A stretch of DNA of 54,835 nucleotides, counting the filler, from Sluysia triapertura (taxonomy: Eukaryota), in NCBI GenBank assembly GCA_046118255.1. It is 4 parts of 4 records of this genome, joined end to end, with 100 filler letters (N's around TTAATTAATTAA, not from the genome) between each part and the next. Parts side by side here need not be neighbours in the genome. Positions count along the whole stretch, not along the records: positions 28,673 to 39,813 come from JBJNIA010188365.1; 3 more parts are not named here. One strand, given 5' to 3'. A model generated the notes under the pieces. The model was not told where the DNA came from. It ran no database searches and saw nothing but the letters and a program-made list of their open reading frames with translations. This document shows positions 1 to 54,248 of the stretch, in pieces. Position 1 is the first letter of the stretch, and each line of letters opens with the position of its first letter. The position numbers and the translations under genes were made by a program.

Positions 1-439
1 CGATTGACGTAGGCGAACCCAAAGTATAAACTTAAAATTTTTCATAATTGTTCAGGTAGTAGTAAAACCGAACAATACTATCTATTTAAATTATTAAGGC
101 TTAAAACGATCAAGATAATAATAGTGAGTCTTAGTAATTCACAAGCTTCAAAGACGCAACATGCATATAATTGTTCTATCAAAATGCCTTTTTGGAGATA
201 ACCAATATCAACTGAAGCACTTTATTCAATCCATATAGAAACAGTTTTATGAACAGTATTCGACGGCTTTATAATGCATTTCGAATATGCCGTAATACAT
301 TCAAGTAATTTATATAAATAAATGTTTATTTGATGACCAAAAAGCTGCCACTTTTTTTAGCAAACTCCCTATTAGATGCGCATAAACATACGATTAGCAA
401 ATTTAGTGTCTACAAACACAATTCATTAGATAAACATGA

Positions 440-706
440 CCTACTTTTATCTGTTTAATCATCTCGAACTTCTGAATATTGTTCATTTTGTGATTCAGCC
501 GTATAAACAAAGATTTTGATTCGTTCGCAGCATCTTTAGGATAGAAATATGTCCAATCGAATCCATAACCACCATTAATTTGCTAAGTGTTCCAAAAATT
601 CCTTAATCTGCTTTAAATTCGTCATTCGATAAGCAACACCTCGTACAATTTCATTTTCTTTAACACTGATAGGCGACCAAGCTCTTTTATTAAACGTGAA
701 ATTCAT
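440..706 (-). pseudogene. ChaC-like glutathione-specific gamma-glutamylcyclotransferase fragment, frameshifted
   Basis: Manual minus-strand translation over three frames gives EIVRGVAYRMTNLKQIKEFLEHLAN / GGYGFDWTYFYPKD / VYTAESQNEQY. This matches the ChaC motif order (WGVAY...L..RE..GGY.....FYP.D...Y....N..Y). The RE motif is lost at a frameshift. Confidence 0.5.
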
Positions 707-1119
707 TTTCTTCAATACAAACAAACCTAATACAAACGCTGACAAAATATACGTTTATGTCCTTTAATAATAACCAATTTTACAATTACAATATGAAAAA
801 CCCTGTTTCCAAATTAATGAAGCATAACCGAAAATATAAATATGATTGTGTCATTTCACTGCTCAATCTATATGCATTTAACTAGAAAAACAACTTATGA
901 TTCTAAATTAGTTCTCTTAGTGACAAAACAAAGTTAAATATTATTGTAACATTTAATATGATTAAATACTTCAATTTGTTTTTCTTAAAATTAAATAATT
1001 TAAAATTTTTTCGCCTAATTATTTACAAATTTACTAAACACTTAAATGTAAATAAAATAGAATAAATAATATTAAATAATATTGCATAATAATGCCGATT
1101 GATTTATTAATACTCTAAG

Positions 1120-4500: not shown

Positions 4501-4566
4501 CCAAATTCATTTCACAGACTCATCCTACAGATCATTTAGAACTCAAATAAATTATAATTACAGAAT

Positions 4567-4725
4567 TGTTAGACTTCATAAAATGGACTGACTGGGGATC
4601 GAACTCGGGACCTCTATCTACGCAGTTCGATGCTCTACCACTGAGATATCAGCCCCGTCTAACAATTTTATTTTATTATAGTCAATTTTACCAAATGGCA
4701 CTTTAGGACTTTTTTTACCCCAACA
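4567..4725 (-). mobile_element. 159-bp TGTT..AACA element (solo-LTR/TRIM-like or MITE) carrying a tRNA-derived sequence; 4-bp TSD GAAT
   Basis: Starts TGTTAGAC and ends CCCAACA, with GAAT on both sides (4563-4566, 4726-4729). Absent from the paralogous site near 12600-12620. Second copy at 36386-36543. Confidence 0.85.
4584..4655 (-). tRNA. tRNA-Ala-derived pseudo-tRNA inside the mobile element
   Basis: Reverse complement GGGCTGATATCTCAGTGGTAGAGC...GGTCCCGAGTTCGATCCCCAGTCAGTCCA shows A and B boxes and an acceptor stem GGGCTGA/TCAGTCC with a G3:U70 pair. The anticodon arm is degenerate. Confidence 0.7.
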
Positions 4726-28672: not shown

Positions 28673-29819
28673 CATTTATCTAAATTTAATAAATTTTTAT
28701 AATTTAAATTATTTTTTAAAAAATATAAATTTTATATACACTCTTACATAATTAAATCATAAATAAATAAATTAAATTTATAAGATTAAAAGAAATAAAT
28801 TAAATTATGAAATTTAAATGTAAAAAAATAAAATTTAAATTAAATTAATTAATAAAAAATCCAATTTGTTTTAATTAATTATTTTGTTAAATGGTCGAAA
28901 TCAACATGGATGACCACAAATTATGATATAAATAGATGAGTGAACATGTGGAACAAAAAATTTTGCAGTTTAGGTAAAACGAAAATAAATTTTGCAGAAG
29001 ACTTTTGAAAAAATTTACTCCTGAAGATTTTTAACATCAATGAAAAAGTAATTTTATTTTATTAAGTTCGATTCACCAAATTAGGAATAAAAAAAATATA
29101 CCTAAAATCATTTTTATTTTATGTAACATCTTAGAAAGAGTTGCGAAAGTTCATTATAAATTTTCATTAAAATCAACCGAGGTTGAATTGTATCATATAA
29201 AATTTTATTATTATTATAATTATCGTTTCTTTTATTGTAAGTAAATTTTTTTAGTTTTAGTAATAAACCTTATTGTGTTAGGTTGTATTAATACTTATAA
29301 ACTAATTTTTTAAAAACAACATCTTAAGAAGGATTGCGCAATATACTAAAATAACATTAAAATTTTTAAAAGCAACACCTTAATACGGGTTGCGTAATTA
29401 TAAAATATATAATTGATTAAGAAGTTGATCGTTATAAGTTTCATTATTAAGTTTATTTGATAAGTTGATATTGATTAAATTTGAATTTAAGTTTTGTTAT
29501 TGAATTTTTTGACTAAAGTTTATTTGATAAGTTTAAGCTAATATTTAAAGTTTAAGTTATATTTGTTGATTAAGTTTTAAGTTTATTAAGTTAAAAGTTA
29601 AGTTTTGATAAATTATAAGTTACGTTTTCAATTTTTTTAAAGCTACACTAACTGGGTTATACTGCTAATTGTTAAATAAGTTTTGATTACGACTATTTGA
29701 TTTACGATTACATTTTTCAATCTTATTGTTAAATAATTACGTTAAGAATAGATAATAATAATAACCATAAGAAGAAATATACGAGAACTTTAAGAAGTAG
29801 CTCACTTGAAAGATTTACA

Positions 29820-30810
29820 ATGACGGTACCATTTAAAGAATTTAAAGACTGGATGTCTAAATTGACTCAGAATATTAAACCAATAGTAATACTTCCAGAA
29901 ATGCGCAAGTTTAATGGCGCCGAAGAACTTTGTGATTTTTTATTTGAATTTCATAGCCTAGCTGAAGTTAATGGCTGGACACCGATAGATAAGGTTAAGA
30001 TGTATTATTTAACTGGTATTATTTACAATATTATTTAACTGGTGTTGCAATACAAACATATAAAGAGATAAAAGATGAACATTAAGAAGATTGGAACACA
30101 AATGTCGACGTTTTTACCGAAGAAATAGCATTAGAAGACATATGATTATACTATCTAAGAATGCTTAGTATAAGGGTACAGAAACCGCACGAAACAGTTT
30201 ATGAATTTGCATGTGTGCTTAGAATTCCAGATAACAGAGAGAAATAGTATTAATGGATAAGTTTACAAATTACGAATTTATGTAAATTTAATCGAAGAAA
30301 TGCCATTCAAAGGCATAGTTACGAAATTAAGAAGTATTGAATATACTAAAAATGAAACCAAAAAAATATAAGTTACATAGATGATAACAAGAATACAAGA
30401 AATCATTACAAGCATAAGCATGAGAATTCTTTTGAAGGCAATAATTTTAATAGTAATAATAGTGATTTTAATAGCAATACAGATAACAGTAACAATAACT
30501 TTGGAGGTAACAATAGAAGAAATTCAAATAATTTTGAAATAATCCAAGAAGAAACGACACTAATGTTGATAGGAATAATAGAGGATTTGAGAAGGACAAA
30601 TAAATAATATAGGTTCAAGAGAGTATGAACAACTTCCACTGCCAAGGTGGCCTAGTAAACAGTCGAATAATAATAATTTTTCAGTAAGAAATAAAAGTCC
30701 TGCACGATCAAACTATAATAACAGTTATGAAACAAGAACAAATATAGGTGACATAGTATGTCACAATTGCGGTAGACATGGGCACTATGCTCGAAATTGT
30801 AATAAGTTAA
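29820..30810 (+). pseudogene. gag: Ty3/Gypsy-type gag (capsid plus CCHC zinc knuckle), disrupted
   Basis: KFNGAEELCDFLFEFHSLAEVNGW..DK..YLTGVA...Y, then RVQKPHETVYEFA (major-homology-like), an N/R-rich linker and CHNCGRHGHYARNC at 30759-30800. A duplicated TATTATTTAACTGGT breaks the frame near 30003-30043. Confidence 0.85.
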
Positions 30811-32279
30811 GCAAGACTTAAATAAATGTCGACCTCCAGACAAACCTCACCAATGAGGGTAAGATTCCATAAGAGTAGGAATGAAGGACAAATAAATTGT
30901 AATTACGATTAGGAGTATGAAGATTAAGAATATGAGAGACATCCAAGAACACTGACAGATGAAGAAGAGATGCTAAGAGAATTTCGTAGAGAAAAAATAG
31001 TTAATAACGATATTAAGGAAGAAAAGAAACAACCTAGGAGTAGGCATGATGATGAAGATGATATGTTTATTAATTGTTTACATAATTCCTTTATGCAATT
31101 AGTAAATAAAAGTTAAGAGAGGATAAGAAGAGAAAAGACGTAGAAGAGCAACAAAATTCAAAAATAATTAAAAGTGCTCAACAAATTGAAGAAGAAAGAA
31201 AGTATGCCGAAGCAATTGTAAGTAGATGGATGAAGCATAGTGGCATAACAGAAGAAGACGAGGATAAAATCAACATTAAGTGATATTAACTGTATAGTAA
31301 ACTTAGAAGAAGAAGAAACAATTAGTTCATATGATCAAGAAGAAAAGATTGATTATATACTCTCAGATACTGAACCGATGATTATTTTAGGTAATGAAGA
31401 AGATATTCCAACCGAGGGAAATAGTACACAAAAAACAAATTTTTTAGAGGTTTATCCAAAGAGGTAGAAATGTTTCTTTCAGATTTAGTAGGCGGTAAAA
31501 ACATGGATAAAAATTTAAATATACTTTTAAAAATGAACTTAGATATGTTTAATAGACAAAATATTCGGTCATGCTTAACTTCACTTAAGTGAGGAAGATA
31601 GCCTACATAGTGTTAAGGCACGAAGATTATTAAGAAAAATAGGTTTGGCTGATAGAACAGAAACACCTGACACATTGATAAACATTAATATACTTATATA
31701 TGGAATTGCCTGTTACTCTAAGAGTAGAAGATGTAATAAATATGCTTATATTAAACGACCTATCAATATTGAGTGCGAAACTATATATCTTTAAGAGACA
31801 TCTAAAACCCAGAGAATATTTAATAGATTAGGTTATCAATTGGGTGATCATGATGAAATGATAAAGGCAGAAATAGTACATGAGAATTCAAATGACGTTA
31901 AAAATGAATCTCCACGTACACTACTAAGACAATTAATGGAGGATGATTATGTACATGTAGTTGATATCGATGCCGAAGCAGAAAAAGATGACCCACTTGA
32001 TTATATAGTGAACCTTAATAAAAACTCACATCTAGAAACCGTCGATAAAGAAACGAATACAATAAAAAGAGACGAGAATGATATAATAACTGCACATTTC
32101 GTTAAAAATACTATCGATATCCTAAAATACTAATAATATCAGGATTTATGTATCAAGATAAAGACGAATACCCATTGGAAGAAATAAATAAAAATACTGA
32201 CCAGATACAAAGAAAAAGGCTAGATGAAGTCGAACACCGACAATACTAATGGCTAGTAGAGAAGAAGATAGTTTAATTT

Positions 32280-33290
32280 TTATTTCAAAAGGAACAATAA
32301 TCCGCTCTGGAAAAGAAATAACAGAAACTAACTCAGAGAAACTATCTCTCAGAGAAAATAATTCAACAAGCTAAGAAAGGCCTATTTTAACAATAAAATC
32401 GATTTCTATTACCATTTAGGTTTGATTTCGCTAGAAAAAATTTATCAAATTATGATTACTCGGGATTGTCAATTTAACAAAGAAATTCTACGCACAAAAT
32501 AGCTATTACAAATCCAGACTTAGTCGCACCACTACCACCATTAGAAGAAGGAGTTTTACACGCATAAATGTAAAAAGGTAGAAGTACAATTAAGGTTAAC
32601 CACCGAATGCACAAATGAATTGCTTATACTATACGGTAAAACAGAAACATACCTCGAACCAGTAACCAAAGTAATATTTCCAAATAATAAAGTCAAACCA
32701 AAATTAATGCACTGCTCTAACGTCATGGCACCAGAATATAGAATCGATGATAATTTATGGATATCCTTGCTACACAGAAGCCAGGTAAAAACTCCAGAAA
32801 TAATAGGACTAACTGAATTAAAGGGAAAACTAAAATTTTTAGCTACAAAAATATACCAAATTCTGGCATTTATACGAATGACGATATGTAAGCAGCCTGG
32901 CGGAAGATACTATTCCCAATGAAAAGGTCAAAAATATTAACTGAAATTGTAGATAAAGCAACAGTTGAAAAGTATGGACAAGTAAATTTCGAATTACTAT
33001 TTGGACCCGATCATTTTAAAAGATCTGCACAAGATACACTGAAACAGATATGGGGAAAATTTTTAATATTAGAACAAGCATTTTCTGGATTAATAGGAAT
33101 ATTTATAATCATTAAGGTAATGTCTTTGATAATTTTTCACGCTTTTTCAGTAGTCTGAATTTATAAAATCTCGTGATTTATGTAGAAATTAATAATTGGA
33201 TGTTTTCCATTCCTGGCAAAATACTTCTTGCACCACCACGCAAATGCTCAAATAAATGCATTAAGAAGACAATACACAGAAGAATGACAG
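32280..33290 (+). pseudogene. env: Chuvirus (Jingchuvirales)-like envelope glycoprotein, C-terminal portion with transmembrane helix, disrupted
   Basis: KAYFNNKIDF..LEKIYQIMITRDCQFNKEILRT / IAITNPD..G.VLH / KCKKVEVQLRLTTECTNEL..YLEPVTKVI..CSNVMAPEYRIDDNLW / SGIYTNDDM...ILFP..IWGKF..FSGLIGIFIIIK. This follows the recalled chuviral G motif order (AYVNSK, C..E, PD, HIIKC.PVEV..R.T.EC..EL, C....P.Y.I...W, SGIY, MFP, W..F..F..G.IGI). Confidence 0.75.
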
Positions 33291-36149
33291 CAATTACAAA
33301 CATTGCAAAACAGTGAAAATGAATAAATAATAGAAAATCAAAAATGCATTGAAATTCAGAAAACAGCTATAAATTTTACATAAATTTTAGATAAAATTTT
33401 ACATAAAGATTCAATTTGACACAACTTTCAGAAATTATTTATTACTCGCACTTTAAAATTTTAATTTATTTATGATTTTTATTCATTTACTTTTTTAGTG
33501 AATGTGTGTAAAAAATTAAATTTACTTAATAAAAGCATAAAAGTAAGTTTCATTAAATTGAATTTAAGAAAAATTACTTTTATTTAATATTTGTAAGTAG
33601 AGCATAAAAACACAAAATTTCAATAAAGATTTTGTTAATGTGAACTTTTTATTATTTTTGCATCAATAAAATGTATAGAATGTAAGGGTCAGGACTCAGA
33701 ATAACAGAATAAGTTGAACATTATTAAAGAATTAAGATGAGGTATCATGATGAATTGTAATGGTAAGATAAGTATATAAAATACTTACATTAAAACAAAA
33801 TAATGAGAGATATTTGTTAATTAAATTAATTAAAATTTGTTTAATTTGATAAGTCAGTAAAAATGTGTGTTTATGATATAATGATTTTAGATTTAGTGTA
33901 TAATATTGAGTTTTATTACTGTTTTTAATGATGAAGTATTGCAAAGCACGTCAACGTAGATAACGTAAAAAGTAGTTATTTTAATTAATTTTTATAATTT
34001 AAAATTAAAGTTAAATGTGTTCCGATGTCTAAGTGTTAATAAAGTATATATCAAATTGATGCTTATAGCAGAGATCAATTCAAATATGTTATTGAACTTG
34101 ACTTGAAATGCAAGGTTGACGTACAAAATATTAATACAAAATTAGTCCTGTGAGAAATAAATTTATTATTTCATTATTTTATCTTTAAATTAAGTTGACA
34201 AATTACGATATTATTATAAAAACAATGTAACAATGACTTTAAATTTTAATTAGATGATATTAAGAAGATAAAGAGATTGTTTATCACAAATCCCATTAGC
34301 TTTGGATAATTAGAATGATAATGAAGTTGAACATAGACGGAAATTGCTGTCGACATTTAATCAGCGAAATTAGTCAGCTTATTGCCGACTAAAAGAAAAT
34401 CGACAGCTTTAATTTCCGTCTTGTCAATTTCTGATTTTTAATTTCTCTAATTATCATAAAACTGCTACTTTCTAGTTGTAGGGACGCTGCCTTGATTCAT
34501 CTGTGGTTAACGGTGATATAAAGACTTATTCTTTAGTAATTGATTAAAATAAATATTTAGAGTTAGAGTAGTAAGGATTAGTGAATTATTTTATATTGTA
34601 TTAATACGGATGCAAAAATTTAAATAAGTTCTGTCACCCTGGTTAATATTTGCCATTGAAGAGTGATTTATATTGTTATAAAGAATAATTTGTATTGTTA
34701 TTGTTATAAAGAATATTTCAGGTGTAATCTTGTGATAATATAAAGAATATATCAAGATTTTGAATTTATTTAGTTATTGAGTTTTGATTTAATAATTTGG
34801 GAAATAAAAGTATTAAAAGATACAACAATAGTACAAAAAGAATGGATGCATTAGAATACCATTTTCAATAATTATTATTAAACTAGAAATCAAACGTTTC
34901 AAGCTTATTAAAATGAGATAACAATTAAGCAAGACGAAAGTTTTTAAAATTTTTAAAGAATCGACTATCTACTTGGAAAATATGACATAGATTATTCTTT
35001 TTCGAAGTTAGTGTAAGGTTGTTTTATAGGATTTTGTAAGTCAAATTTTAAACTATAATTAAATTAAATGTCATAAATTTATTTTCGCATGGTATTTTAA
35101 GGGTAGTGAAACATTTTTGATTAAATAAATATGTAATTGTCATATGTTAAAGTTTATATTTATGTCAGAGTTAAGATACATTAAAAATACAAAGTTTGTG
35201 TACAGAATTTATTTATGTTAATTTGTAAATTTATAAATTTATAAATATAATTTGTAAATTTAGTTTTAATTAATAATGAAATTTAAATATTTAAACATAC
35301 CATGTTTGCAAACTAATTAAATATTTTGTTTAAATTAAATAATTGATATCATTCTGTTTAACTACAATGTCCATTCTCATTAGAATATAAAAACACTAAT
35401 CACAATTTACATTTTACACAATTTTTCGATTTATCTGGAAAAACAACAAATCTTTGCACAATTTTGCTCAACTTTCAAATAGTGTGGAATTTTCTACGGT
35501 TTCTGTAATTAACAAATTACTTCAACGTACCACCTGCAATACATTTCCTGATTCTTCAAAAAATTAATTCTTGATAGTTTTTGTTAGTAAGTTGTACCTA
35601 TTTTAGTAGGTAGTAAACTCGACTTAAAATCTTTTCATAATTTTTTAATAGACCTTTTAATTGGGTCTTGAAACTAATTTTTATATTCCTTTATTAACGT
35701 TGTCATTAATATACTTTAATTTTTTAGAGTTTGTAATTTGATTGTTAGAAAATTTTTTAATAAGGGATGATGTTTATAAATACATGGTCGTAAAATTCCA
35801 CTCAAATTATTTTTAATTTAGATTTGATTTTAATAAGGAATACCGCTTTTAATTACACGGTAGAAAAATTCTACTTAAATTGTAAATAGTCACTGAAAAA
35901 TTAATTGTATTACTATTTACAAGCTGAAAGACGAATTTAGGATTTATTGCAATAGTTGAATTCAAAAATAAACCTCCACTATTGTTTCTGTTGATACCTG
36001 TGGACTAGTCCTTAAGTGAATAAGTCTAGGATCGTAGGGACCAACATGTCACATTTCACATTATATTATCAAACATAAAATTTCTCTGCATAATATATAA
36101 ATTAATTTTAAATTATAACAATAGTAATTATTACTACAAATTGTTACAG

Positions 36150-36321
36150 AAATAATATGAAAGCAGATTCTGCCAAATCGTTAAAGTATTACGATATGAA
36201 TAATGATGGTAAAGTAGACTGGAGTGAATATGTACAGATGGCCTATGAAATGGATTTGAATACACTACATATGATTCAAGAACGAAAGAACAAGTCAGCC
36301 AATGATGTACATTTTCTTCGA
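36150..36321 (+). CDS. Isolated intact exon of a CREC-family EF-hand protein (calumenin/reticulocalbin-like)
   Basis: Flanked by an acceptor ending CAG at 36149 and a GTTAGT donor at 36322. Encodes YDMNNDGKVDWSEY, a canonical EF-hand loop with the CREC-type 'V.W.EY'. Other exons were not found. Confidence 0.65.
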
Positions 36322-36385
36322 GTTAGTTCAATTCTTTGATAAATTTATATTATAAATATATACTTATTTTTTATTTTATTATTAT

Positions 36386-36543
36386 TGTTAGACTTCGTAA
36401 TATGGACTGACCGGGGATCGAACCCGGGACCATCGTCTGGGCAATCGATGCTCTACCACTGAGCTATCAGCCCCGTCTAACGATTTCATTTTCAATATAT
36501 TCAATTATACTACTTGGCACTTTTTAGGCCTTTTACCCCAACA
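36386..36543 (-). mobile_element. 158-bp TGTT..AACA tRNA-carrying element, second copy; 4-bp TSD TTAT
   Basis: End-to-end homologous to 4567-4725, with TTAT at 36382-36385 and 36544-36547. Confidence 0.85.
36403..36473 (-). tRNA. tRNA-Ala-derived pseudo-tRNA inside the mobile element
   Basis: GGGCTGATAGCTCAGTGGTAGAGCATCGATTGCCCAGACGATGGTCCCGGGTTCGATCCCCGGTCAGTCCA has intact acceptor, D and T stems and a G3:U70 pair, but a defective anticodon arm. Confidence 0.75.
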
Positions 36544-52986: not shown

Positions 52987-53894
52987 TTGTTGAAATAAGA
53001 ATTACTTAGAGTAATTCTATCGCAAATTATACTATCTTTTATTTTTATTTTTTGTAACAAAGTCTTTTAATCATTTTTAATAAAATTTCTTAGTTCTTAT
53101 TAAATAGCTTTAAATATAAAAAGATAGCACGAAAAAGATTTCCATAGTTATATTTTAATTCTAACTACGTAAAATACTTATTAACGATCCTTTTCATCGG
53201 ATCTACGTAAAATATCAATTAAATTATTATTTTTGATTATATTTTTATACAACTCCAGATTTTCTAAAAGATTCAAAAAGTAATAGTAATAATAATAAAA
53301 CCAAATAAAGAAGTTTTTAATTAACGTTGCACTTCGAGGAAATTCTTTTTCACTTTTATCTACAAATCCAACGGTTGGCCCTAACTGGTAAGTCCAGTAC
53401 GTTGGTGAACTCACGTTGTTCTTTCACTTTGCACTAAATTTCTCACATTGTTTTAATTTATATTGTTCTTAACGTTAATAAAAGATTCATTTATTTGTTT
53501 AATTTGTCACAACAATGTTTAAAGTATTTTAAGATTAAATTATTGTTAAAGTTAAAAAATTTTAAAATTTCTTTTAAAAATATAAAAAATAAAATTTCAT
53601 CAATGTTTCATCGCAAATTTTCGGCTAATTTTATGACAAAAATGACGCCATCACTAAAATTACTAAAACATACGTCAAAGAAACGATTTTTTTAATTATT
53701 AAATTAAAAATTATTAATTAATTAATCGAAATAATAATGTTAAAATTAACCATTTTTTGTTACATATCAGAAATACTTTTCTAAATGAAGAATAATTCGT
53801 ATTTTATTCGTGGTGGTCAAATTATAAGTCAAAAACAGGAAAAATATGTTTTTCTTTGGTTTTCTTAATATTTGCTCATCACTGAATGTGTAAG

Positions 53895-54248
53895 ATACGG
53901 AATGATAGATATTTGGTGAAACTATCTACGATGAATCATAAAGCTACTAGCATGACTTTACAGAAGCAGTTAGAGACTTGCGGAATTAACGTTAGTGCCA
54001 GAACAGTCGGAAGAAGACTTGAGGACAATGGTTTGCGAGCGAGACGGTCCGGAAAAGCCTAAGTTGACACCAGGAATGATAGTAAAAGGTTGGTATGAAG
54101 CAAGCAACATCAACATTTAACCAGAGTCAAGTGTGTTTTAGTGACGAGTAGTCCTTTCAAGTATTGGATGACAAGACCACCTTTTTAAGGAGACCTAATG
54201 AGAAGCTTCACTCTGATTATGTCATAGAAACTGTGAAAGATCCAACAG
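53895..54248 (+). mobile_element. Tc1-like transposase fragment (second HTH to first catalytic Asp), disrupted
   Basis: RNDRYLVKLS..N.KATS..LQKQL...GINVSARTVGRRL..NGLRARR / KPKLT / VCFSDE*SF...RRPNE.LH.D....TVK. Confidence 0.9.

What the first reader, a model, noticed from the sequence alone, without database searches (positions are those of the whole stretch)
29820..33290. Gypsy-type gag paired with a chuvirus-like fusion glycoprotein: candidate enveloped retrotransposon lineage
Seen: on one strand and in retroviral order, a Ty3/Gypsy-style capsid with a single CCHC knuckle (30759-30800), then ~330 codons of a Cys-patterned glycoprotein ending in a transmembrane helix. Known: the glycoprotein motifs match chuviral G as recalled. 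Capture of chuviral G is described for BEL/Pao elements (Anakin) in insects, whereas insect errantiviruses (Gypsy) use a baculovirus F-like env, and BEL/Pao gags carry a triple Cys-His cluster not seen here. Inference: this may be an independent capture of a negative-strand RNA virus fusogen by a Gypsy-like element, i.e. a once-infectious retroelement in this host. This copy is dead, with many stops.
Basis: partly seen in the sequence, partly recalled or inferred. Interest (0 to 1): 0.85.

Follow-up and report, generated by a model that had tools for sequence, protein, structure and literature searches.

The report
Dead envelope-carrying Gypsy retrotransposon, known kind
This is a broken, cut-short copy of a repeated jumping-gene element whose capsid gene sits next to half of a virus-like membrane-fusion gene; it likely comes from a flatworm and likely belongs to an already described group of envelope-carrying Gypsy elements, so it is an ordinary new example rather than a new kind.

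Summary
A Ty3-type capsid with one CCHC knuckle lies upstream of a broken gene for a chu-like class III glycoprotein (PF24664, E 7e-19 and 2e-11). The novelty claim does not hold. The closest relative found, L047, is 46% identical in env, against 17-22% for three viral G proteins (tree support 100/100). L047 is a single ORF reading linker-env-protease-RT-RNaseH-integrase, with a Ty3-type pol. Gag next to env is therefore likely the native gag-env-pol order. That order, with a mononegavirus-like env, is published for planarian Burro/GYPSM1 elements (PMC6431247) and for Schmidtea 'errantiviruses' (PMC13524379); the second paper also reports 114 Gypsy elements with the Chuviridae-like glycoprotein. 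By eye, the window matches a Schmidtea env stretch at 15 of 33 residues. This copy lacks the env N-terminal half and all of pol and belongs to a highly repeated family. The scan reported this kind before on other DNA (e1-9803730). Verdict: a relic of a known kind, low interest.

The parts
29100..29819 (+). AT-rich leader with several imperfect short hairpin units and a tandem-repeated T-rich tract; likely 5' untranslated region of the element. No LTR or primer-binding site recognised
   Evidence: Summed contig depth rises from 48 (28700-28910) to 406, 1,126 and 33,970 over 28911-29543, then dips to 579; tandem repeats; hairpins of -1 to -8 kcal/mol, no shuffle control; no convincing primer-binding site
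29820..30250 (+). Ty3/Gypsy-type capsid region of gag, broken by a small tandem duplication at 30002-30043 and by stops
   Evidence: Alignment to Ty3_capsid protein P0006 over 29865-30029; Atlas; duplication from TRF
30759..30800 (+). Single CCHC zinc knuckle (nucleocapsid), preceded by an Asn-rich spacer
30850..32100 (+). Charged linker between gag and env, in several frames; 31615-31995 is weakly collinear with the pre-env part of L047 (aa 40-169). No protease, RT or integrase
   Evidence: 11-13 of 1000 shuffles reach the score, region chosen after looking; no Pfam hit; no pol hit
32000..32227 (+). Inferred junction of an internal deletion of roughly 500 codons relative to L047, removing the rest of the linker and the env N-terminal half
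   Evidence: L047 aa 169 maps near 31995 and aa 724 at 32228; 9 N-terminal conserved Cys columns absent; no positive-scoring match of profile positions 1-307 anywhere in 29700-35000
32228..33296 (+). C-terminal half of an HSV/gB-type (chu-like, PF24664) env, in 5 pieces with 4 frame changes and 5 stops
   Evidence: (tblastn to L047 E 3e-57)
33078..33160 (+). Predicted transmembrane anchor of env
   Evidence: Hydropathy; aligned with the helical C-terminal region of the L047 model
33335..33680 (.). Apparently single-copy DNA: the element's shared sequence likely ends near 33360, so pol is lost by 3' truncation
   Evidence: One 375-nt contig, depth 12.3, no differences, covers 33335-33709; bin depth drops to 1,515
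33681..34827 (+). A separate very high-copy repeat with TG...CA ends, AATAAA at 34803 and a 6-bp flanking direct repeat with one mismatch; likely a solo LTR, probably not this copy's own 3' LTR
   Evidence: Depth 143,000-537,000 over 33764-34818; ends, no polypurine tract upstream, no second copy in the window

Best explanation
The locus is a broken, internally deleted and 3'-truncated copy of a highly repeated element that likely was a Ty3/Gypsy retrotransposon of the gag-env-pol type described in planarians, and it is predicted to make no working capsid, fusogen or enzymes. Shown: Ty3-type capsid, one knuckle, the C-terminal half of a PF24664 env with its anchor, stops and frame changes, no pol in the window, many similar copies in one sequencing run. 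Shown for the closest relative L047: one ORF with env upstream of protease-RT-RNaseH-integrase, a Ty3-like RT, and a predicted herpes-gB/chuvirus-G fold. Inferred: the parent made one polyprotein, cut into capsid, env and enzymes, copied itself by reverse transcription and may have used env to pass between cells; this copy then lost about 500 codons inside and everything after env. The host is probably a triclad flatworm (about 0.75, inferred).
For: Window env pairs with L047 at 100/100 and 46% identity; the other 18 rows are at 17-24%. tblastn E 3e-57. L047 domain order; best PDB match of its RT is the Ty3 RT, E 4e-97 to 1e-96. The L047 env model (mean pLDDT 62) matches herpes gB, E 7e-13, and chu-like G, E 9e-37. 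Schmidtea errantivirus env rows resemble the L047 N-half by eye, and window 32237-32335 matches Smed_errantivirus_3 at 15 of 33 residues without gaps (counted by eye; L047 matches 9 of 33 there). The 19 nematode C1 rows show no such likeness by eye. Burro elements carry a mononegavirus-like env in frame between gag and pol, and decayed fragments are reported in Dugesia japonica (PMC6431247). A purine-rich + strand runs across 29800-33300 (0.60 against 0.50 in both flanks), and all bins from 29755 to 33341 have depth 6,789-137,778 against 48 in the left flank. No pol: 3 Gypsy pol queries gave no hit at E<=1 in the 54.8 kb.
Against: No relative was found that holds both this gag and this env: L047 starts inside its ORF and has no gag. 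The gag search returned 5 proteins, of which 4 are knuckle repeats and 1 is a distant gag. The linker match to L047 is weak (11-13 of 1000 shuffles). Burro gags have 2-3 knuckles, this has 1. SUMO-like and BCL2-like domains of Burro were not shown in L047 or the window. The likeness to Schmidtea sequences was counted by eye only. Contigs are short (listed pieces 209-438 nt), so none links gag to env, and that run may be the window's own sample. The host was not confirmed from a host gene (one search found nothing).
Confidence: 0.8

Rival explanations
1. Same Gypsy plus gB-type env kind, but with the usual gag-pol-env order; one deletion of about 4 kb removed pol and the first half of env.
For: Such elements exist and were retrieved: L056 and L079 read gag-pol-env with PF24664 env. 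An LTR-like repeat follows env.
Against: Their env is 18-22% identical to the window against 46% for the env-before-pol element L047. About 320 nt of apparently single-copy DNA and no polypurine tract separate env from the LTR-like repeat. The linker is weakly collinear with L047's pre-env part.
Confidence: 0.08
2. Chance adjacency or nesting: a gag fragment of one family lies next to an env fragment of another.
For: No single contig or relative spans both. Depth dips to 6,789 at 31654-31864.
Against: Same strand and the order expected from L047; unbroken purine bias; all bins between gag and env are covered far above the flank.
Confidence: 0.06
3. The shortened gag-linker-half-env form is not a one-off decay product but a pol-less family that spread using the enzymes of full elements.
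For: High depth over the whole stretch, including the bins that hold the inferred junction (26,296 and 44,963).
Against: Full-length copies would cover both sides of the junction just as well. No contig was shown to bridge it. This copy has no LTR pair and ends in single-copy DNA.
Confidence: 0.04
4. A BEL/Pao element of the Anakin type, or a recent direct capture of a chuvirus G gene.
For: Anakin elements carry the same glycoprotein family (PMC7642597). The env motif retrieves chu-like viral genomes.
Against: The capsid matches a Ty3_capsid protein; there is one knuckle; the closest relative's pol is Ty3-type with no BEL/Pao Pfam family listed; viral G proteins are only 17-22% identical.
Confidence: 0.02

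Closest known systems
Schmidtea mediterranea errantiviruses Smed_errantivirus_1-6 (HSV/gB-type ENV, C1a, GAG-ENV-POL; Chary and Hayashi, eLife 2026, PMC13524379)
   Same: Ty3/Gypsy element with a Chuviridae-like, gB-fold env placed after gag; multi-copy (1-215 copies); the env stretch matches by eye at 15 of 33 residues
   Different: Those are intact with pol; this copy is broken, lacks the env N-half and pol. No alignment or tree with them could be computed
Burro / GYPSM1 giant Gypsy elements of planarians (as described in PMC6431247, citing Jurka 2007 and Grohme 2018)
   Same: Gag with CCHC, then accessory region, then mononegavirus-like env in frame before protease; thousands of copies; decayed fragments known in Dugesia japonica
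   Different: Burro gags have 2-3 knuckles and carry MATH, SUMO-like, BCL2-like, BIR, ankyrin and dUTPase domains; one knuckle and none of these were shown here. The gag-to-env distance is much shorter here
Metagenome element L047
   Same: 46% env identity, 100/100 pair, weakly collinear linker
   Different: Intact 3,426-aa ORF with complete env, three protease domains, pol and a downstream exonuclease ORF; gag end not on the contig
Anakin (BEL/Pao plus chuvirus glycoprotein; Dezordi et al. 2020, PMC7642597)
   Same: Same glycoprotein family inside an LTR retrotransposon
   Different: BEL/Pao backbone in mosquitoes; here the capsid and the relative's pol are Ty3/Gypsy
Non-canonical nematode ERVs (Sacco et al. 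2022; only the title and its citation in PMC13524379 were seen)
   Same: Metavirus with an RNA-virus glycoprotein and env before pol
   Different: The 19 nematode C1 env rows shown do not resemble L047 by eye; nematode C2 rows were not looked at
Chuvirus and mononegavirus G proteins (PF24664; L022, L023, L024)
   Same: Same Pfam family, four shared Cys in the part present, same predicted fold
   Different: 17-22% identity; they lie in L-G-N or N-P-G-L RNA virus genomes

Membership tests
Ty3/Gypsy LTR retrotransposon | Ty3-type capsid gag with CCHC nucleocapsid | tested here: met
   (P0006, Ty3_capsid and Retrotrans_gag)
Ty3/Gypsy LTR retrotransposon | pol with protease-RT-RNaseH-integrase of Ty3 type in this copy | tested here: not met
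   No hit from 3 Gypsy pol queries in the whole window; no pol family in 128 ORFs scanned. The copy is therefore filed as a truncated relic, not as an intact member
Ty3/Gypsy LTR retrotransposon | Ty3-type pol in the closest env relative (L047) | tested here: met
Ty3/Gypsy LTR retrotransposon | Paired LTRs, primer-binding site, polypurine tract | tested here: not met
   No LTR pair by self-comparison; one downstream LTR-like repeat without a tract, apparently a separate insertion
HSV/gB-type (chu-like) env | PF24664 match above the curated cut-off, with C-terminal anchor | tested here: met
   67.7 and 43.5 bits against cut-off 27; hydropathy
HSV/gB-type (chu-like) env | Class III fusogen fold | tested here: met
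   Tested on the intact relative L047, not on the window. The alignment used held chu-like G proteins, which favours that match
HSV/gB-type (chu-like) env | N-terminal half (domains I-II with fusion loops) present | tested here: not met
   9 conserved Cys columns absent; no match to profile positions 1-307
Planarian gag-env-pol elements (Smed errantiviruses, Burro) | env between gag and protease | tested here: inconclusive
   gag-env in the window and env-protease in L047; no single sequence shows all three
Planarian gag-env-pol elements (Smed errantiviruses, Burro) | env sequence of the Platyhelminthes C1a group | tested here: inconclusive
   By-eye match only: 15 of 33 with Smed_errantivirus_3; no computed alignment
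Burro / GYPSM1 in the strict sense | 2-3 CCHC knuckles | tested here: not met
   One knuckle
Burro / GYPSM1 in the strict sense | SUMO-like and BCL2-like accessory domains before env | tested here: inconclusive
   Only ubiquitin-like FUBI rows at E 1.3-1.5 for L047; no Pfam hit; model pLDDT 38, no fold match
Burro / GYPSM1 in the strict sense | Total length above 30 kb | not testable with these tools
   No whole genome held
BEL/Pao (Anakin) | BEL/Pao gag and pol (triple Cys-His cluster, Peptidase_A17, DUF1759; these markers are recalled) | tested here: not met
   One knuckle; none of these Pfam families listed for the window ORFs, L047 or 32 ORFs of related loci

The most novel reading that the evidence does not exclude
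The host carries a high-copy, pol-less offshoot of a planarian gag-env-pol element that has kept gag and the stalk-and-anchor half of env while dropping the fusion loops: a defective passenger that rides on, or interferes with, the full element's particles. The data do not exclude this because the copy census could not be done.
Probability: 0.1. Interest if true: 0.45.

Novelty: new member of a known kind. Interest (0 to 1): 0.14.

Why it matters
Little beyond annotation. It adds one decayed example, in a host probably not surveyed, to a class already shown to be old and widespread. The family is very abundant in the one run laid, so it is worth adding to this genome's repeat library. It does not show a new capture of a viral fusogen. 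It would matter more only if the shortened form proved to be a spreading family of its own.

Tried and rejected
No whole genome is held, so no tBLASTn census or RT tree of sister copies was possible. Word-based protein searches with two env pieces and one host-gene-like ORF found nothing (79, 177 and 38 candidates, none scored). Peptide scans of viral contigs with env pieces found nothing. The gag scan gave 21 loci, none of which matched the element by tblastx at E<=0.05; they were rejected as chance. Atlas on an env piece gave only rows at 0.81. PDB sequence searches with gag and env pieces gave nothing meaningful. Of 56 metagenome motif hits, 19 held a family env at E<1e-9; the other 37 were dropped. 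The tree used 16 of those 19 (L059, L077 and L037 were left out as split or short), 3 viral G proteins and the window. The idea that 31450-32230 is a diverged env N-half was rejected. The idea that the downstream repeat is this copy's 3' LTR was judged unlikely. The gags of L056, L069, L079 and L080 gave no capsid match to the window (158-995 of 1000 shuffles). SUMO-like and BCL2-like domains in L047 were suspected by eye but not shown. No RNA holder was listed. Sacco 2022 and Grohme 2018 were not held. Sequence, place and Burro look-ups in earlier findings were blank. One literature search for pol-less gag-env elements gave one unrelated paper; that is too thin to call such forms unreported.

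Full report
Observation. The window is AT-rich, gene-poor DNA (GC 13-31% per kb) with many (AAT)n runs. Over 29800-33300 the + strand is purine-rich (0.60 against 0.50 in both flanks). The CCHC knuckle lies at 30759-30800 and is the only one in the three forward frames of 29700-32200. Two frames of 32383-33302 match PF24664 Monjiviricetes_fusion, positions 310-461 and 471-623 of 653, at 43.5 and 67.7 bits against a cut-off of 27. A transmembrane-type helix starts near 33080. The capsid has no Pfam hit of its own. A search of 1.84 billion representatives returned 5 proteins, 4 of them knuckle repeats and one, P0006, a Ty3_capsid/Retrotrans_gag protein. P0006 aligns with 29865-30029 at 17 of 55 residues, 0 of 1000 shuffles (it was selected by this query). 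The Atlas places the same piece near reverse-transcribing-virus clusters at 0.92-0.93.

Relatives. No whole genome is held, and word-based searches failed. A degenerate motif from the env Cys pattern (1 match in the window, 0 in 100 shuffles) found 3 loci in viral contigs. All 3 are in PF24664 G genes of negative-strand RNA virus genomes, two in L-G-N order and one in mononegavirus order (the order is read from ORF positions and Pfam). These G proteins are only 17-22% identical to the window. The same motif gave 56 metagenome loci, of which 19 encode the family. One stands out. L047 matches the window at E 3e-57 and 46% identity over 324 columns, and pairs with it at 100/100 in a 20-row tree in which every other row is at 17-24% (16 of the 19 loci, 3 viral G and the window; midpoint-rooted, so no donor can be read). 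L047 is one ORF of 3,426 aa: a pre-env region, env at aa 470-1109, three protease matches, RT, RNase H and integrase. Its RT is closest to Ty3 among solved structures (E 4e-97 to 1e-96). Its env model (pLDDT 62, 17-sequence alignment) matches herpes gB (E 7e-13) and chu-like G (E 9e-37). The contig begins inside the ORF, so L047's gag is not seen. Two other loci, L056 and L079, are Gypsy gag-pol-env elements with the same env family but are distant from the window.

Anatomy of this copy. Homology to L047 env begins by 32228 (aa 724, 0 of 1000 shuffles) and runs to about 33296 in five pieces with four frame changes and five stops. Nine conserved Cys columns of the N-terminal half are absent, four are kept and one is changed. 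A profile of 17 family members finds no trace of positions 1-307 in 29700-35000. The stretch 31615-31995 is weakly collinear with L047 aa 40-169 (11-13 of 1000 shuffles, chosen after looking), which implies an internal loss of roughly 500 codons. No pol was found in the window by three Gypsy pol queries or among 128 ORFs. Contigs of one run (X1, possibly the window's own sample) show a highly repeated family: 22,599 contigs were laid on 28700-35000, most 80-95% alike, and summed depth is 6,789-137,778 in every bin from 29755 to 33341 against 48 in the left flank (depth is not a copy number, and hundreds of copies is my inference). A 375-nt contig of depth 12 with no differences covers 33335-33709, so the shared element likely ends near 33360. 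A different, still more abundant repeat follows at 33681 to about 34827, with TG...CA ends and no polypurine tract before it; it is likely a separate solo LTR. No listed contig links gag to env or bridges the inferred junction.

How it most likely works. Shown: the parts above and their breaks. Inferred from L047 and the papers: the parent was a Ty3/Gypsy element making one gag-env-pol polyprotein, cut into capsid, a class III fusogen and enzymes, spreading by reverse transcription and perhaps moving between cells. Whether such env proteins mediate infection is untested for most elements (PMC13524379, discussion). This copy can do none of it. It is a passive relic after an internal deletion, 3' truncation and point decay. 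Confidence 0.8; rivals are gag-pol-env with one large deletion (0.08), chance adjacency (0.06), a pol-less family in its own right (0.04) and BEL/Pao or recent viral capture (0.02).

Comparison with what is known. [quoted passage not shown] They state that this glycoprotein resembles Chuviridae envelope genes, that Anakin-type baits found 114 such gypsy elements, and that the order is GAG-ENV-POL in Nematoda, Bryozoa and Platyhelminthes. Their six Schmidtea env rows resemble the L047 N-half by eye, and window 32237-32335 matches Smed_errantivirus_3 at 15 of 33 residues without gaps. The 19 nematode C1 rows do not show this likeness. Arkhipova and Yushenova (author names recalled; PMC6431247, passages) describe planarian Burro/GYPSM1 elements with a mononegavirus-like env in frame between gag and pol, and decayed fragments in Dugesia japonica. 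Dezordi et al. (PMC7642597, passages) describe the BEL/Pao case. PMC11410931 (passages) gives above 70% A/T and expanded LTR/Gypsy for planarian genomes, which fits but does not prove a planarian host. PMC5408684 (passages) reports DEDDy exonuclease ORFs in LTR elements, as in L047. PMC3118150 (passages) added nothing. Sacco 2022 was seen only as a title and citation; Grohme 2018 only as cited. Figure supplements of the eLife paper, which hold the alignments and trees, could not be read and bear on the exact grouping. The element works like these planarian gag-env-pol elements. Strict membership of Burro is not met (one knuckle, accessory domains not shown), and the copy is filed as a truncated relic because pol and LTRs are absent. 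An earlier scan note on another genome (e1-9803730) reached the same class; I had found the paper before reading it.

Verdict. Observation confirmed, interpretation partly supported, novelty low: a new, dead example of a known kind. Interest 0.14. The boldest reading not excluded is a spreading pol-less offshoot that kept gag and half of env (probability 0.1, interest 0.45).

Noticed in passing
L047:2-10279: Unusual polyprotein: after env come three aspartic-protease matches and, by eye, two extra signal-plus-beta-domain-plus-transmembrane segments, one between the second and third protease and one after integrase. No Pfam family names them. How one ORF threads env, membrane segments and cytoplasmic enzymes is unexplained.
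   Followed up: partly
L047:10617-12104: Second ORF of 496 aa with an RNase_T (DEDD-type) exonuclease match, E 1.4e-5; similar accessory ORFs are described in rotifer LTR elements (PMC5408684).
   Followed up: partly
L047:38-1270: Pre-env region looks by eye like a ubiquitin-like domain followed by a BCL2-like helical domain, as in Burro; the tools gave only weak or no support.
   Followed up: yes
L079, L080, L069, L039: A GC-rich group of Gypsy elements with dUTPase and a PF24664 env, apparently in head-to-tail arrays (env followed by the next gag).
   Followed up: no
L056:1-12849: Gag-pol-env Gypsy element with PF24664 env and a further 259-aa ORF, assembled with identical 118-bp ends.
   Followed up: no
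window 33681-34827: Very high-copy LTR-like repeat, probably a solo LTR of unknown family.
   Followed up: partly
window 47601-47930: Myosin head fragment (Pfam E 5e-21) with altered P-loop residues by eye; looks like a decayed gene copy.
   Followed up: no
window 36112-36336: EF-hand fragment (Pfam E 2e-4).
   Followed up: no
window 36403-36473 and 4565-4674: tRNA-like element on the minus strand with an 86% identical copy at 4565-4674; likely a tRNA-derived SINE.
   Followed up: no
window 40397-40726 (-): 110-aa ORF that recalls hillarin/transglutaminase-like proteins (recalled, no hit).
   Followed up: partly
window 53886-54059 and 50219-50539: Tc1/mariner transposase HTH fragment (Pfam E 2e-9), and an ORF that recalls the C-terminus of L2/CR1 LINEs (recalled, no Pfam hit).
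   Followed up: no
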